Shown here: piece after piece, positions 2,505 to 63,027 of the stretch
Layout of the letters: each line of letters begins with the position of its first letter
Numbering within the stretch: the first letter of the stretch is position 1
NCBI GenBank assembly: GCA_965113315.1
Contig: OZ220370.1
Reading direction: 5' to 3' (one strand)
Source: Podarcis vaucheri
Lineage: Eukaryota
Length of the DNA: 64,000 nt
Notes under the pieces: model-generated
What the model saw: the letters and a program-made list of their open reading frames with translations, nothing else
The model's database searches: none
What the model was told of the DNA's origin: nothing
Program-made: the position numbers and the translations under genes

Positions 2505-2864
2505 GGTAAAGGTAAAGGTAAAGGGACCCCTGACCATTAGGTCCAGTCGTGACTGACTCTGGGGTTGCAGCGCTCATCTCGCTTTATTGGCTGAGGGAGC
2601 CGGCGTACAGCTTCTGGGTCATGTGGCCAGCATGACTAAGCCGCTTCTGGCGAACCAGAGCAGCGCACGAAAATGCAATTTACCTTCCTGCCGGAGCAGT
2701 ACCTATTTATCTACTTGCACTTTGACGTGCTTTCGAACTGCTAGGTTGGCAGGATCAAGGACTGAACAATGGGAGCTCACCCTGTCGCGGAGATTCGAAC
2801 CGCTGACCTTCTGATCGGCAAGTCCTAGGCTCTGTGGTTTAACCCACAGCGCCACCCGCGTCCC
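2505..2864 (-). mobile_element. Sauria SINE, full length
   Basis: Minus strand starts GGGACGCGGGTGGCGCTGTGG (A box), has GGTTCGAATC (B box) and ends in (ACCTTT)n; imperfect flanking duplication CAGAG(G/C)AGGGGTA. Confidence 0.9.
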
Positions 2865-4515: not shown

Positions 4516-4876
4516 CAGTGGTGCCTTGCAAGACGAAAAGAATCCGTTCGGCAAGTCTCTTCATCTTGCGGTTTTTTCGTCTTGCGAAAGCAAGCCCATT
4601 AGCGGCTTAGCGGATCAGCTGATAAGCGGTTTAGCGGATCAGCTGATAAGTGGCTTAGCGGATCAGCTGCTAAGCGGCTTAGCTGATAAGCCGCTTAGGA
4701 TCAGCTGATAAGCGGCTTAGCGGCTTGGGAAAAGGGGGGGGGGACCCGCAAGACATTTTCATCTTGCGAAGCAAGCCCATAGGAAATTCGTTTTGCGAAG
4801 CACCTCCAAAACGGAAAACCCTTTCGTCTAGCGGGTTTTCCGTCTTGCGAGGCGTTCGTCTTGCGGGGCACCACAG
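4516..4876. mobile_element. Tc1/mariner-type MITE with internal minisatellite
   Basis: TA|CAGTGGTGCCTTGCAAGACGAA...TTCGTCTTGCGGGGCACCACAG|TA TIRs and TA TSD. Confidence 0.85.
4601..4725. repeat. 24-bp tandem repeat, about 5 units
   Basis: Unit AGCGGCTTAGCGGATCAGCTGATA directly visible. Confidence 0.9.
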
Positions 4877-6348: not shown

Positions 6349-6743
6349 AGATTTGGCTCCTGGAGGCAAGAATGCAACTCCCAAACTAGCCAGATATACC
6401 AACAAACTTCTTGTGATACAAGACTTTGGTTCAAGTGCTACACAGTTAACGCTGACTATATACATGATCAACAGGAGGAACCTAGCACATAATTACATAC
6501 TAAAAACAAGAACAAACCAATAACCCCCTCCCTTAACCCCACCTAGTCTACTCACACTGGTATGCTTCATTTGTTGAATGAGTTCTAAAAATCAGTTTAA
6601 ACAGAGATCTCTTACCTACCTGATAATTACATACTTTGTAGGCTTTTTAATTGTGGACAAGTAGAGGCTTTTGATACTAATCATAATTAAAGCAGGAACA
6701 CTGCCATAAAGCACACAAGAAAAAGTAAAAGTTGATATTAACT

Positions 6744-8029: not shown

Positions 8030-8096
8030 TGTTGGCTCAGAATAGCGTATAAATTAATCAAAGTAGTTCAGTGCACTTTTGTCCTCATAGCCAACA
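8030..8096 (-). ncRNA. SNORD54: Box C/D snoRNA U54 in RPS20 intron 2
   Basis: 8-bp terminal stem TGTTGGCT/AGCCAACA, box C variant ATGAGGA, box D CTGA, guide TATACGCTATT complementary to 18S rRNA AAUAGCGUAUA; ~80 nt upstream of the 3' splice site; RPS20 is the known U54 host. Confidence 0.95.
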
Positions 8097-10324: not shown

Positions 10325-10448
10325 TTATTTATCCAAGTTGTATACCGCCCTTTTTCGTAAGATCGCAGGGCGGTGCACAACATAAAAACTACAAAACGGA
10401 AACAGAAAAATACGTAATAAAAACAAGAACGAACCAATAACCCCCTCC
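10325..10448 (-). mobile_element. L2-type LINE 3' tail fragment
   Basis: Same family as ~58125-58245, ~6490-6530 and the + strand tail at ~50860-50970. Confidence 0.65.
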
Positions 10449-10681
10449 CCGAAAGAGGGCCCGCCTCTACCCACGGAGGGCTTTTAATGAGGCATAAAGG
10501 AAAGAAGAACCGAGGAGAGCCACGACCTCGGAGCAGCTCGTGAGAGCGCACGCGCGAGGTGGGGGGGTTGGGGAGGGGGCCTTAGGCGCAACCGTTAAAT
10601 TCGAACGTCTCCCACATCCATGGCAACCCGTCGGCGCGAGGGCTCTTTCCCGCGCGACCCCTGAGGCCCAGTCTCCCTCAC

Positions 10682-10684
10682 CAT
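10682..10684 (-). CDS. RPS20: RPS20 coding exon 1 (ATG only)
   Basis: GCGGCC ATG|gtgagg; splices in frame to exon 2. Confidence 0.95.
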
Positions 10685-10789
10685 GGCCGCCGCGGAGCCT
10701 TCCTGACCGACTTATTCCTGGCCGAAGCGCGCGAGGCCCGGGGAACAGCGGTGAGTCAGGAAACAAGCGCCTCGCCGAGACACGGACGC

Positions 10790-10825
10790 AAAGAGGGCGG
10801 GTGGCGAGGCGGCGCGGGCTTTATA
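10790..10825 (-). promoter_or_regulatory. RPS20: RPS20 core promoter: TATA box and TCT/5'TOP initiator
   Basis: TATAAA at 10825-10820, pyrimidine tract CCCTCTTT at 10797-10790; 5'UTR runs from ~10795 to 10685. Confidence 0.85.
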
Positions 10826-11696
10826 GGCTCGCCGAGCCACACACGCCCCGCCCCTTTCTCCCCCCACTTCGCCCCGGAACCGATTCGGGTGGATGGATGG
10901 GGAGGAGAAGCGGCGAGGGCGAGGGCTGGGCCTGCGAAGCGAGGCAGGGGCGGAAGTTGTTCTTCAGGGCGGCGGCGGGTCGGGGTAGGGAGGGTAGCCG
11001 CCATGGCTGTGCGATGGGCTTTAGGCTTATGCCGGTAGCCGGGTCCTTTTCCCCGAGGGAAAGCGTAGGATCTCCCTTCTGTCATTTCCCCCTTTATTCC
11101 GGCAAGAAGGAAAGGAAACTCTAAATCCTTCCTTCTGAAATGTGGAATTTCCGATTGATCCAGAATAAGACACTCCCGCCCCCCTCCATCGAAGGGTAAA
11201 CATATACAGTAGTAGTGTACTCACAAGGCGTCTTCTGCTGTGGCTTTTGCTGCTCTGATTTGCTGCTCTGCAGTTTACCCAGGATGCCAAGCCTCGTCTG
11301 TCAAGTTAGAATTTGGCCCCGGAACCTCCCTTGCCCCCTTTTAAACTATTTATCTATATCTCTAGCTCCAGGCTGCCTTCCATTTCAGCAGTGATTGACT
11401 CCGATCAGCCCCGCTCATAGAATCAATATACTGTAATTGTAGAGATGGAAGGCACCTGTGTTAACCACGTTGCTGGAGTTAGGGGGAAGGAACCCCCACT
11501 GAAGCCGATGATGCTTAACGCCCAAACAAGCATGCATGGAATTACTCCATTGAGCGCTGGTTTTACTCCCTCAAATGCTCAGAGACCAAAGCTTTGTTTC
11601 AAAGATACTCTGGGTCAACCAATCTGTTTTAGAGTGATCGAACCCACAGCATTCTTAGACTTGCAGTCTTAAGACTTCCACTTACTTAGATGTAAT

Positions 11697-11926
11697 AATA
11701 AAAAAATTCCTTCCAGTAGCACCTTAAAGACCAACTAAGTTAGTTCTTGGTATGAGCTTTTGTGTGCATGCACACTTCTTCAGATACACTGAAACAGAAG
11801 TGTATCTGAAGAAGTGTGCATGCACACGAAAGCTCATACCAAGAACTAATTTAGTTGGTCTTTAAGGTGCTACTGGAAGGAATTTTTTTATTTTGACTAT
11901 GGCAGACCAACACGGCTACCTATCTG
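11697..11926 (+). mobile_element. Penelope-like element remnant (tail-to-tail inverted repeat)
   Basis: 94-bp arms 11697-11790 and 11799-11892 (2 mismatches, 8-nt loop), tail GACCAACACGGCTACC, perfect 15-bp TSD TTACTTAGATGTAAT at 11682-11696 and 11927-11941. Confidence 0.8.
11802..11839 (+). ncRNA. Minimal type I hammerhead ribozyme motif (PLE type)
   Basis: GTAT-CTGAAGA-A-GTGTGC/AT/GCACAC-GAAA-GCTC-ATAC: helix I, CUGANGA core, helix II, GAAA, palindromic AGCU helix III, CUC cleavage triplet. Confidence 0.7.
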
Positions 11927-14900
11927 TTACTTAGATGTAATCTGCATTGAACTCAAGGGTATTTCTGAGCAACTATACACATTTGGGTGCAAAGCATGGG
12001 GAGGCAATCCGCAGTGGCAAAATGTTGCTGGGAGGGGGGAGAAATAGGATCACTCCCCACTTGCTGCAAACTTACTTCTATTTCCAGACAAAGACAAATA
12101 CGTATGGGATAGATAGTGATGTATTCAACTTTTTGTCCTTAGGGAGACCTATTATGAAGTATTGGAAAGAATGAATCACTTTTCAGTCTTATAATTGACT
12201 GGTGCAACAGTATATGAATATTTACATTTTAAACAGGATGGTTCAAAGGCAGGACACAACCAAGAACACCAATGTTCTGAACATATGCAACTAGGGCAGA
12301 ATAATTTATCTTTGCGGCATTCCTTGTGTTACAGATCTGCCAACTTTTAACTTTATTCTTCCTCACAATCAGACACATTTTGGAATTAGGTTATGCTTTC
12401 TTTGGAACAACTTCACCCTTACATGTATTAACCCCTTAGTCCTCACCCAAGTTCATTTATGATGAGCCTGTTTTTAAGCAACAGGCTTAATAGAACATTT
12501 TACATAATAATGAACTGAATGCCTTCAATAAGATACTATAAAATCCTAGTATGAACAAATGTTCTAACAAGAAATAAAGCAAGAAAAAAATAAAAGTACC
12601 TGTAGTAGGCGACTATACAACTGTCTAATCATGCTGTTCTCCAGTATGATTTCTCCAAAATGGTCAGATGACCATTTTACCACAATTTTGTACCTGTTGG
12701 ACAGCAAAAACCCTCTCTTCTGCTTTGTACAATGATATATCCAACCAACAGTGCAATCCTAACTCTGTTTACTCCCAGGTAAATGGGAATGAGATTGTTG
12801 GGGTGTGGGGAGGTGACAGCTCACCTTGGAACAATTTGGTCATTATTTTGAACAAAAGTCAGAATGCCTTCAGGAATACAAATGCAAAATAGGCATATCT
12901 TACATCGCAGCAATATAGGATTTAATTCCTTGCTTCCATTAGCAGGGCTTCAGTAATCATGTTACTACTCTTACCCATCTAGTAGGATAAAACAGCAATG
13001 GAACCATTTTTATCAGGTATTTGTTCTTATCTCTTATATAAAAGGTTTTGCCTTATTTTAAAAGACGAAGGCTGTAGATAAATTGAAATGGATAATCCTA
13101 TTTCATTTCCACACTCACATTTTTGTTAAGAAGGTTGGGTAAGTGGCTGCAGCTAATATGAATACAAAACAGATTTGATGGATGACAAAGGAGATTAAAT
13201 ATCATTGGTGGTAGTTTTGCAATAAGACGTGTGGAGAATAGGGAGGAAGAAAAGATGCCATCCATATTGAGCTTGAGAAAATTCATTTTTAGTAGGATCT
13301 TAGTATAATAATTATAAAGAATTATTTATGCACAGCAGTGTCAACAGTTGTCATTGGCAATATACATTAGCCTAGCAAAGCTAGGAAAACAATGCTGGCA
13401 GTGGGAGATAGATCCTTGACCTAAATTTAAAATCTAAATAAATAGAATGAAAATTGCTGGAGTTAAATTCTAGTTCAGTGATGTAACACTTTGCATCAGA
13501 TTTGAGATGGGCGTCCCATACAAATTTTTAATGTGGTGGCAAAAAAGGTGAAATAAAAGTCTGTTGGTCTAATATTTCCCCAAACATGATTTAGGTCTTA
13601 AACAAGAAAAGGGCATTCTGTCTCACTACAGGTGTAAAAAGCAACTCAGCAAAGCTAACATGATAACATTGATTCCTGCTGTTGTAAATAATCATTGCAC
13701 TTCTATTGTATTGTACTGTTGTTTGGAAATGTTACGTATCTCTTCCATTCTACAACTTTTTGTGCCCCCCCATTTCCCACACTGTAACCATACATCTGTT
13801 TACTGAGAATAACACTCGATGTGTGAAACCTTTTGTCACAGTAATTTTCTCGGCGTTTAGAGTTCTGCAGCACTCATTTTTTATCCTTTCCTTCTCAACA
13901 GAAGGTGATTATTATATATACCCATTCACTTCTTCTCCATTGTAGATAAGAATTTTCTATCTTTTCCCATCTAGAGAGATGCTAGGGAGTTCACATTATA
14001 GCAAAAAGGAATAACTTTTTATTGATATTGATTCTGTTATGAACCAGGTATAGCTTTCCTCTAGCATCTCTTATAAAGTATACTAACTGAACATGTGAAC
14101 TTCAGTTCAGATCAAAGTTTGGTTACATTCTTAAAACAAACCAAAACTGAAACATAAAACTAAGTCTGTAAGATAAGATACATCCAACTGTTACATCAGC
14201 CCATCTCCAACCGTAATAGGACACTGCACACCAACACAGATGTTTAGGACTAAATCCAGGGGTCTAAGATGCAATAGAAGGAGAGTTGACAAAAGGCAAA
14301 TATACAACAGATTTTGATATATACATTTATATTAATGTGAGCATCTAATGTGAAAGTTAGTTATTATTGTTAAAAAAATATGATACATAGCAACCCATTT
14401 ATGTTGACACACAAGCTACTTCTTTGTAAATAATACATTAAAGTATGTTATGTGTGGACTACCCAGCCTATTTCTGTTCCATGATGGTTTCTCATACGTG
14501 CAAAAATGCATCTGAATACATTCTTAAAAATCCATGGGGTTTTGCTAAAATAAAAGTAATGTATTTATAAAGTGGTCCGAGGACTGCTTATGGAAGCAGC
14601 TATCTTTTTCTCTGGACAATTCCCCATGAAGGGACCACATGCTTTGTTCCCTAGCTGCATTAAACTTTTTTTTTTTTTACTTGCATGTCTACAGTGGAGT
14701 TATTAGCTGCTCTAAGCTAGCTAGAACAAGGATACCTAAAATATAATATCACTCCTTATATGCCTAACCAACAATTAGAGTATGCAGCATAAGGCATTTT
14801 GCAGATACCATATTGCCAGGAAGTCTGTCTGCATGATACTACAATGGGCCCTCTAGTGTGCCAGCACTTGTCTGTTAGACAGGTGCCATATCTCGTCTTT

Positions 14901-20231: not shown

Positions 20232-20688
20232 TAATTGCAACTGGGTGGTTGTTATTATAAATTATAGGAACTGGAATGGGCTTCTTCAGGAGTGAACACA
20301 CTGCCACTTGTTTAAGAGAAGCAGGCATCATTCCATCACATAAAGATGCACTCACCACAGCCTGGTTGTGCACATGGTTCATGAGAGCAAGAAGCACATC
20401 TTTGTAAGAGTCTTGTCCAAATCATTGGGTCATGTAAATTGAAACTGATCCCGCAGAGCATGGGAAGGAATTGTATATAACACTTCAGGTGGAACTGCAA
20501 TGACGGTGAGACCCAAGGCGCTATGGAGCTGAGTTACTTTATCCTCAAAGTTCTGTGAAAACTGATCACAGCATGCTGGTGAGTGCTCCAGAGGTCCGCC
20601 TACCACTTCGGGTAATGATCAGTCTTTGGACTATCCAAAACAACTCTGCCAGACAGCTCTTTGAGGATGCAATAGAGGCGGCAAAGTA

Positions 20689-20947
20689 CCATATTTTTTG
20701 CTCTATAAGACTCACCTTTTCTCTCCTAAAAAGTAAGGGGAAATATGTGTGCGTCTTATGGAGCGAATGCAGGCTGCGCAGCTATCCCAGAAGCCAGAAC
20801 AGCAAGAGGGATTGCTGCTTTCACTGTGCAGTGATCCCTCTTGCTGTTCTGGCTTCTGAGATTCAGAATCTTTTTTTTCTTGTTTTCCTCCTCCAAAAAC
20901 TAGGTGCGTCTTGTGGTCTGGTGCGTCTTATAGAGCGAAAAATACGG
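20689..20947. mobile_element. Tc1/mariner/pogo-type MITE
   Basis: TA|CCATATTTTTTGCTCTATAAGAC...GTCTTATAGAGCGAAAAATACGG|TA. Confidence 0.85.
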
Positions 20948-21916
20948 TAATTCTCTTTTGTCACCTTCACTGCTGCTTTACAGGTAGCATTCTGTGACTG
21001 AATAAGCATTCAGTCAGCTTTGGAGTGAGTTTTCCACCACCTGCGCTCTAGCTGTCTCCCATTGTGGGTCTTCAGCATGATCCAGCAGGGCTGATCTTAT
21101 GTTTGTAAGTGTATTCAGGAATGGATTAAGTCATTTGCCCTAGAAAGAGTCTTCTTAAATTAGCTTTTTAAACTTGCCATAGTATTACTATGAACTTGTT
21201 AAGATTCATTCCTACAAGGAGCCCTCATTTTTCAACCCCCCCCCCCGTCTTAAAAAAAATTCTTTTTCTTAAACTGCTTCACTGAAAGTACTTCTCTGCT
21301 TTTCAGCAATTGCTTGCAATTATATCACAATGAGAGGTTATGGAATGCCACAGAGAATTCATTATCAATCAGAAATTTTACCTTGCTATCACACTGCACC
21401 CAAGGAAGTACATTCATATTGGGCTCTTTCACAAAGTGTTGCTCCATGCAGATTTCACCACACCATGAGCAACAAATATAATTGTGGGTTGATGACACAA
21501 TTTAGGTGTCATTTTGTGATTTTCTAGATCAACTGCTACAAAGCTGTGTATATTCAAAATGCTTACTTGGGACTTTCAGATGAGCATGAGCACAAGTTAA
21601 ACTTGTATGTGATATGACACAGGCATAAGTAAATGCCTGGTCTTTATAGATGAATACAAGTTTCAGTTTCTGATGTTACTTTTGAAATGACAAGAGATTG
21701 TGTGTACTGTACTTTTCAAATTGCTTTCAACTTTGCTAAGTAACAATTTGTTTTATTTTTTCTTAATCACACGAGGCTTCTCTAAGGCCAAAGCAGAATT
21801 AGAGCTAGAGAAATGTGTGGCAAAAAATAGTCAAAAGATTGCAGCATTTTAAAGACAATATGCAATTTCAGTAGATCTCCCAGAGTGTTGCACAGGATTC
21901 AGTTGTTCTGTTACCA

Positions 21917-42935: not shown

Positions 42936-43374
42936 AACCTAAAGGCTGGATTACTGTAATGCATTCTATATGGGGCTTTGGAAGTTCCTGATTTGGAAGC
43001 CCATACAGATAGGGGTGCATGGCCGACACCGTGACACCACTGTTAAAACATTTTCACTAGCTACCCATTTACTACTACGTCATGTTCATTGATTCGCAAA
43101 GCCCTGAAAAACTTGAGAGATCCAGGGTACCTTATATTTCAGCTCAATCACTGAGTTCATCTGCAAGAGCATTGTTAGTCATCTCCAAAAGCTGGTAAAG
43201 CTCACCTGACAGCAATAAGAAATTGCACTGACACAGTTCTAGAATGCTCTGCCAATAAAGATTCAGCAGACATCTTCTATTTTAATTTTTACATTTCCAC
43301 TGAAAAGCCCCCTGCTTTCTTTTGCAAATAGCACTGCCACTTTATCTTTTTTGTACCTAATGGAGACCTGGTAA

Positions 43375-43737
43375 AGGTAAAGGTAAAGGTACCCCTGCCC
43401 GAACGGGCCAGTCTTGACAGACTCTGGGGTTTGTGCGCCCATCTCACATCTATTGGCCGGGGGCCAGCGCTGTCCGAAGACACTTCCGGGTCACGTGGCC
43501 AGCGTGACAACGCTGCTCTGGCGAGCCAGAGCCGCACACGGAACGCCGTTTACCTTCCCGCTGGTAAGCGGTACCTATTTATCTACTTGCCCCCGGGGGT
43601 GCTTTCGAACTGCTATGTGGGCAGGCGCTGGGACAGAGCAGCGGGAGCGCACCCCGCCGCGGGGATTCGAACCACCGACCTTTCGATCGGCAAGCCTTAG
43701 GCGTTGAGGCTTTAGCCCACAGCGCCACCCGCGTCCC
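43375..43737 (-). mobile_element. Sauria SINE, full length, CpG-rich subfamily
   Basis: A box, B box GGTTCGAATCC, (ACCTTT)n tail; perfect 13-bp TSD GGAGACCTGGTAA at 43362-43374 and 43738-43750. Confidence 0.92.
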
Positions 43738-58124: not shown

Positions 58125-58245
58125 TATTATTATTTATTAAACCTGTATACTGCCCTTCATCCAAAGATCAAAGGTGATTCACAACATAAAAATACAAAAT
58201 GAGAACACAAAATACAATAAAAACAAACCAATAACCCCCTCCCAC
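58125..58245 (-). mobile_element. L2-type 3' tail fragment
   Basis: Same family as 10325-10448. Confidence 0.65.
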
Positions 58246-62754: not shown

Positions 62755-63027
62755 AAGGTAAAGGGACCCCTGACCATTAGGTCCAGTCGCAGACCTTGCT
62801 TTATTGGCCAAGGGAGCCGGCATACAGCTTCCGGGTCATGTGGCTGGCATGACTAAGTCGCTTCTGGTGAAACCAGAGCACCTCATGCAAACGCCGTGTA
62901 CCTTCCCACCTGAGCGGTACCTATTTATCTACTTGCACTTTGATGTGCTTTCGAACTGCTAGGTTGACAGGAGCTGGGACCTTCTGATCGGCAAGCCCTA
63001 GGCTCTGTGGTTTAACCCACAGCACCA
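62755..63027 (-). mobile_element. Sauria SINE with internal deletions
   Basis: Aligns to 2505-2864 but lacks the B-box segment and the extreme 5' end. Confidence 0.88.

What the first reader, a model, noticed from the sequence alone, without database searches (positions are those of the whole stretch)
11802..11839. Minimal hammerhead ribozyme ~1 kb upstream of RPS20, oriented with divergent promoter transcription
Seen: helix I GTAT/ATAC, core CUGAAGA plus one extra A, helix II GTGTGC/GCACAC, GAAA, self-complementary AGCU helix III, predicted cleavage after C11835. Established: Penelope-like retroelements carry minimal type I hammerheads with a palindromic helix III that are thought to act as dimers. 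The mirror copy in the left arm (minus strand) has GAAA changed to AAAA, so only the + copy keeps the core. Inference: + is the direction of upstream-antisense transcription from the highly active RPS20 promoter, so this copy may be transcribed.
Basis: partly seen in the sequence, partly recalled or inferred. Interest (0 to 1): 0.7.

Follow-up and report, generated by a model that had tools for sequence, protein, structure and literature searches.

The report
Penelope retrotransposon stub with passenger hammerhead
This small ribozyme motif is real but ordinary: it is the standard end-piece of a jumping gene with over ten thousand copies in this genome, it is missing at this spot in related animals, and it is predicted to be zipped shut by its own mirror copy, so it likely has nothing to do with the neighbouring ribosomal-protein gene.

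Summary
The minimal hammerhead at 11802-11839 is real. It is the pLTR ribozyme of a young Neptune-type Penelope-like retroelement (PLE). It lies in a 230-bp head-to-head insertion (11697-11926) with a 15-bp target-site duplication. The genome holds 11,623 exact copies of the motif. A tandem copy encodes a 910-aa RT + GIY-YIG protein whose first codons are this insertion's 'tail'.

The RPS20 link is not supported. The site is empty in two related species and probably in another individual of the same species. The left-arm G>A is a common CpG transition (9 of 100 listed copies). Any RNA read through from the RPS20 side is predicted to form a 94-bp hairpin in which helices I and II have probability about 0. 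Expression is untested.

Side result: family junctions suggest that both target strands are primed on an uncleaved, capped sense RNA starting at the hammerhead's first bases; the cleavage site shows no junction excess. The scan noted such PLE hairpin stubs before in other genomes. Verdict: new member of a known kind, low interest.

The parts
11802..11839 (+). Minimal type I hammerhead motif (element positions +4 to +41, with +1 = 11799); predicted cleavage after C11835
   Evidence: 11,623 exact genome matches of its 34-nt core
11814..11827 (+). Helix II region, a perfect 14-nt palindrome (5-bp hairpin with CAUG loop, or 14-bp intermolecular duplex)
   Evidence: hairpin -4.1, duplex -25.2 kcal/mol
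11799..11926 (+). Right arm: 5'-truncated PLE end, element +1 to +128, tail-bearing
   Evidence: 95.5% to the pLTR/ORF junction of full element L031 4282-4414; 100% matches elsewhere in G000
11899..11926 (+). 'Tail': first codons of the PLE ORF (ATG at 11899), not mirrored in the left arm
   Evidence: same sequence starts the 910-aa ORF L031:4382-7111
11697..11801 (-). Left arm: inverted, tail-less pLTR copy from about -10 to +94; carries G12>A (11761); overlaps the right arm by a 3-nt microhomology (11799-11801)
11682..11696 (.). Target-site duplication, left copy (15 bp)
   Evidence: single copy at the empty site in X4 and X11
11927..11941 (.). Target-site duplication, right copy (15 bp; first T could also be element-derived)
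10682..10797 (-). Bystander: probable first exon of RPS20 (pyrimidine run to ATG)
   Evidence: snoU54 in an intron; start site inferred

Best explanation
The motif is the standard pLTR hammerhead of a young, very abundant Penelope-like retroelement, carried as a likely inert passenger in a 230-bp inverted insertion that landed about 1 kb upstream of RPS20, most likely by chance. Shown: insertion limits, duplication of the target, membership of the repeat family, the encoded RT and endonuclease of the full element, the empty site in relatives. Inferred mechanism: the element's GIY-YIG endonuclease cut the two target strands 15 nt apart; its RT primed on both cut ends, once at the far edge of the tail (about +128) and once at the near edge (about +94), copying uncleaved sense RNA; the two short cDNAs were joined head to head through a 3-nt microhomology. 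In the parent element the ribozyme sits at the inferred RNA start (+4 to +41) and would cleave weakly, as a dimer or with help from the element's protein. In this copy any read-through RNA is predicted to fold into a 94-bp hairpin that hides it.
For: 15-bp duplication and arm map. 60 matches listed from 40 scored of 296 candidates, many 98-100% identical; 11,623 exact motif matches, control 0. L031 is a partial tandem, ORF end-pLTR-full ORF-pLTR, with RVT_1 (E 3.3e-12) and GIY-YIG (E 3.3e-5). One contig runs across the site without the insert in X4 and in X11; X3 is consistent with an empty site; X1 is filled. Helix I and II pairing probability 0.000 in 3 of 3 folds that include both arms. One-sided tail and inverted 5'-truncated pLTR are the described PLE layout (PMC8557442, PMC3846280, passages). 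Both-strand extension and two RT start sites flanking the tail were shown in vitro for the anole Poseidon element (PMC11167929, main text read). In 9 of 26 arm pairs, this one included, the tail-less arm reaches more than 5 nt further 5' than the tail arm, which a simple fold-back of one tail-bearing cDNA cannot give.
Against: No RNA data for this locus. Folding is equilibrium prediction; an RNA starting inside the insertion at +4 would keep helices I and II (P 0.53-0.61 and 0.93-0.95), and D. virilis Penelope has an internal TATA-less promoter (PMC2377424, passages), so such an RNA cannot be excluded although the insertion lacks the family's TATA-like box. X3 has no single contig across the site. 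The priming model rests on junction patterns from score-selected loci. In 6 of 26 pairs the tail arm is the longer one and 7 are within 5 nt, which fold-back could also give.
Confidence: 0.92

Rival explanations
1. The ribozyme was co-opted or is at least active here: upstream-antisense transcripts from the RPS20 promoter reach it and are cleaved at C11835.
For: Core intact on +, the direction of divergent transcription; about 1 kb from a GC-rich promoter.
Against: Empty site in relatives; the left arm is transcribed first and is predicted to sequester the core; the AGCU duplex needed for helix III is only -2.5 kcal/mol and no second intact + strand copy lies in the window; single PLE motifs showed no cleavage in vitro (PMC4209133) and the anole one needed protein (PMC11167929); the mirror arm's change is a common CpG transition.
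Confidence: 0.03
2. The insertion matters as a hairpin, not as a ribozyme: divergent transcription makes a 94-bp double-stranded RNA that feeds small-RNA silencing of the family or dampens the RPS20 allele.
For: Near-perfect hairpin, -170 kcal/mol; about 900 nt from the promoter.
Against: No expression evidence; many family copies have the same layout, so nothing singles this one out; the microRNA-family hits are all below gathering score.
Confidence: 0.04
3. The 230-bp hairpin is itself a self-copying non-autonomous unit (MITE-like or retrozyme-like) that uses the hammerhead.
For: Many short ORF-less hairpin copies with shared outer ends.
Against: Inner junctions differ from copy to copy; the same layout continues without a break into copies whose arms run more than 900 nt into the ORF.
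Confidence: 0.02

Closest known systems
[quoted passage not shown]
   Same: Short helix I (4 bp), unpaired nucleotide between 9 and 10.1, G10.1-C11.1, palindromic 15.2-16.2, place in the pLTR, most copies single or in opposite strands near each other. The supplement's turtle and snake rows carry the same CUGAAGAA core.
   Different: This lizard-type family is not among the rows found (no 'Anolis' or 'lizard' hit; one supplementary file could not be searched). Helix II is a perfect palindrome with a minimal loop, unlike the rows seen. Copies are highly uniform, as reported only for D. virilis.
Neptune-clade EN+ Penelope-like elements with inverted 5'-truncated pLTR and one-sided tail (PMC8557442, PMC3846280; passages)
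   Same: RT, CX4CxxC linker, C-terminal GIY-YIG with CCHH; partial tandem; tail equal to the ORF start; TATA-like box and Inr-like site in the pLTR; target duplication.
   Different: This copy is an extreme stub without ORF; clade assignment is by linker motif, no tree was built.
Poseidon_Ac (PAc) of the green anole (Frangieh et al. 2024, PMC11167929; main text and part of methods read)
   Same: Hammerhead at the pLTR-ORF junction; 3' ends of insertions fall at two sites that bracket the tail; uncleaved RNA is the template.
   Different: PAc is Penelope/Poseidon clade and its ORF starts inside stem II; here the ATG lies 60 nt behind the ribozyme (+101).

Membership tests
PLE minimal type I hammerhead | Core C3 U4 G5 A6 N7 G8 A9 and G12 A13 A14 A15.1 ... 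U16.1 H17 | tested here: met
   95 of 101 family segments intact (sample leans to query-like copies)
PLE minimal type I hammerhead | Extra nucleotide between 9 and 10.1; G10.1-C11.1 pair | tested here: met
   A11813; G11814-C11827; features from PMC4209133
PLE minimal type I hammerhead | Palindromic, non-self-closing helix III; helix I of 4-5 bp | tested here: met
   AGCU palindrome, 4-bp helix I
PLE minimal type I hammerhead | Located in the pLTR of a PLE | tested here: met
   both pLTRs of L031
PLE minimal type I hammerhead | Self-cleavage as dimer or with protein | not testable with these tools
   needs in vitro assay; predicted MFE dimer pairs through helix II, not helix III
Rfam hammerhead families | Covariance-model match | tested here: not met
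   0 hammerhead families among 19 matches at E<=10; not filed under an Rfam family
EN+ Penelope-like element | Single ORF with RT and C-terminal GIY-YIG bearing CCHH | tested here: met
   910 aa, PF00078 and PF01541; two cysteines between the GIY and YIG halves seen in the translation
EN+ Penelope-like element | Partial tandem forming pLTRs; inverted 5'-truncated copy; 30-40 bp tail on one side | tested here: met
   L031 tandem; 10 of 10 readable inverted pairs in L031-L050 have exactly one tail
Neptune clade | CX2-5CxxC zinc-finger linker between RT and EN | tested here: met
   C-X4-C-X2-C before the EN; definition from PMC8557442 passages
Neptune clade | RT phylogeny | not tested
   no reference PLE set on hand; Nematis not formally excluded
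Host-co-opted (ultraconserved) hammerheads | Conserved at the orthologous locus across species (criterion recalled) | tested here: not met
   empty site in X4 and X11, probably X3

The most novel reading that the evidence does not exclude
The thousands of hairpin stubs of this family are a genomic record of the PLE insertion reaction: the element's RNA is capped and begins at the hammerhead's first bases about 30 nt behind a TATA-like box, its RT runs to the cap and adds a G (17 of 20 junctions at +4), both target strands are primed separately at the two edges of the tail on RNA from the same source element (10 of 10 pairs agree in subfamily), and the ribozyme is not cleaved in the templates used. 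The perfect 14-nt palindrome in helix II would serve as the RNA dimerisation signal that brings two templates together. I found no paper stating this for PLEs in two searches; the scan's own notes describe the twin-priming part in other genomes.
Probability: 0.4. Interest if true: 0.45.

Novelty: new member of a known kind. Interest (0 to 1): 0.13.

Why it matters
As a finding about RPS20 it does not matter: it is one of more than 11,000 copies and is not conserved at this site. The family is of some use to PLE specialists. It is young, uniform, has an intact tandem element and thousands of junctions, so it could test how PLEs prime, where their RNA starts and whether their hammerhead ever cuts in vivo, which remains open (PMC11167929).

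Tried and rejected
1. Rfam scan: no hammerhead match; microRNA hits are hairpin look-alikes below gathering score.
2. A C/T difference at +52 between arms first looked like a marker of two different template pLTRs (T on the tail arm and C on the tail-less arm in most pairs). Rejected as selection bias: the query carried T and the tail, and 0 of the 140 matches listed by patterns that allow either letter show T (read by eye).
3. Footprint of in vivo cleavage: junctions at +38. 40 matches; 9 of the 20 inspected are joins through the helix I complement, i.e. microhomology. In the first 100 listed of 466 junction matches between +32 and +45, +38 had 11 (5 by that microhomology) against 14, 14 and 12 at +32, +33 and +43 (my tally by eye). 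No excess.
5. A 3' splice site just before helix I (as in D. virilis) was considered; junction letters upstream vary, with no constant exon, so a transcription start is preferred; not excluded.
6. Lunse et al. (dimer cleavage) is not held; seen only as a reference and a summary sentence in PMC6765202.
7. Paper searches for lizard PLEs and twin priming in PLEs gave nothing relevant (listings only).
8. No earlier scan note by sequence.

Full report
Observation. The motif is present exactly as described at 11802-11839, and a minimal-hammerhead descriptor finds it once in the window and never in 200 random windows of the same dinucleotide make-up. Helix II is better drawn as 5 bp with a CAUG loop; its 14 bases are a perfect palindrome. 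Rfam has no matching hammerhead model: none among 19 matches at E up to 10. The neighbouring gene is RPS20-like on the minus strand (PF00338 on 1 of 2 exons scanned, just under the curated cut-off; exon translations; snoU54 in an intron). Its likely start near 10797 is about 1.0 kb away (inferred).

What it is part of. The motif lies in the right arm of a long inverted repeat. The whole unit is an insertion, 11697-11926, between two copies of a 15-bp target. The right arm (11799-11926, here +1 to +128) matches dozens of places in the genome at 95-100%. Longer copies run upstream into a reading frame with a GIY-YIG domain, and a protein search had 7,294 first-look candidates, of which the 150 scored were 96-100% identical. 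Locus L031 is a partial tandem: an ORF end, a pLTR, a full 910-aa ORF with RT and GIY-YIG, and a second pLTR. The ORF begins at +101, so the last 28 bases of the window's right arm are the ORF's first codons, the PLE 'tail'; the left arm lacks them. A C-X4-C-X2-C linker before the endonuclease points to the Neptune clade (definition from passages of PMC8557442); no tree was built. The 34-nt motif, allowing two variable letters, has 11,623 exact matches in the genome, control 0. The host looks like a lizard, from recalled repeat types; this was not tested.

Is RPS20 involved? Four results speak against it. First, the site is empty elsewhere: in X4 and X11 (two other species) one contig runs from 11681 straight to 11927; in X3 (same species label, other sample) two contigs meet in a way that fits an empty site, though none bridges it; X1, which may be the window's own source, is filled (4 of 24 listed runs were laid). 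Second, the G12>A change in the left arm is a CpG transition: 14 of 244 CpG positions against 83 of 9367 others in 76 loci, and 9 of the first 100 listed genome matches carry the same change (counted by eye). Third, a transcript coming from the promoter makes the left arm first; with both arms present, helices I and II have probability 0.000 in all three such folds, against 0.64-0.73 and 0.97-0.98 for the isolated motif. Fourth, at one copy per 139 kb, a copy near some promoter is expected many times. The insertion also lacks the family's TATA-like box, which lies at -30 in L031. Against over-reading this: no RNA data were obtained (no RNA holder listed), and an RNA starting at +4 inside the insertion would keep the helices.

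How it likely arose. Outer ends of family copies cluster at about +91 to +101 and +120 to +141, the two edges of the tail, as shown in vitro for the anole Poseidon element, which also extends both target strands (PMC11167929). Inner ends cluster at +1 to +8: 47 junctions there against 5 in the 35 positions upstream, with 47 segments running on, among 99 segments from 75 loci (both DNA queries began at +1, which penalises later starts but not earlier ones). Loose ends at 11802 (+4) appear in all 4 runs laid. At +4, 17 of 20 junctions have an extra G, and at +2, 11 of 11 an extra T; of the 17 G, 3 are explained by the upstream piece, 5 are not, 9 have no traceable source. A cap copied by the RT is my inference, by analogy with L1 (recalled); the T at +2 is unexplained. 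In the 20 protein-selected loci, 10 inverted pairs were readable on both arms: all 10 agree in subfamily (6 and 4) and have exactly one tail. Of 26 arm pairs, the tail-less arm reaches further 5' in 9 (this copy included), the tail arm in 6, 7 are within 5 nt and 4 are unresolved. The first group does not fit the self-priming suggested in PMC3846280 (passages) in its simple form and fits two priming events on sense RNA. Junctions at the cleavage site (+38) show no excess over neighbours, so the templates look uncleaved, in line with PMC11167929.

Comparison with what is known. Every structural feature is that of the PLE min-HHR of PMC4209133, whose supplement lists turtle and snake examples with the same core (one of its files could not be searched and may list closer ones). 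It works like, and is a member of, that class on all features that could be tested; cleavage could not be tested. Published data give no cleavage for a single motif and low cleavage for dimers (PMC4209133), and protein-assisted cleavage for the anole element. The inverted, one-tailed layout is also described (PMC8557442). Eight earlier scan notes on other genomes report similar PLE hairpin stubs; I saw them after reaching this reading, and they are not independent support.

Verdict. Real motif, known kind, bystander to RPS20. Interest 0.13. The only part worth a specialist's time is the family's junction record.

Noticed in passing
L031:2833-7400 (G000:C25): Partial-tandem PLE with an uninterrupted 910-aa ORF and two pLTRs 99.8% alike, inserted into another retroelement's ORF.
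   Followed up: partly
L031-L050, element +37 and +76: Two subfamilies; in one the cleavage-site base is U instead of C, which extends the helix III palindrome to six bases.
   Followed up: partly
L090 and L091 (G000:C18): Two nearby opposite-strand copies share the same 3-nt deletion at the cleavage site, which suggests both arms came from one mutant source RNA.
   Followed up: no
L053, L055, L056, L061, L064, L068-L070, L072, L074, L076, L077: Complex inserts in which the RT seems to have jumped repeatedly: an ORF-start piece followed by a new piece starting again at about +2 to +4.
   Followed up: no
window 8030-8093 (-): snoRNA U54 in an RPS20 intron, above Rfam's gathering score.
   Followed up: no
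window 4585-4726: Tandem array of 8-nt units with palindromic character.
   Followed up: no
window 6486-6532, 10403-10449, 58197-58243: Short repeat with very high depth in all four runs laid; one copy lies in RPS20 intron 1.
   Followed up: no
window 20684-20952: Element with 33-bp terminal inverted repeats and an inner 35-bp hairpin (20784-20862), probably a non-autonomous DNA transposon.
   Followed up: no
window 2505-2854, 43370-43726, 62755-63027: Three copies of a SINE with an inner hairpin, recalled as Sauria-type; not tested.
   Followed up: no
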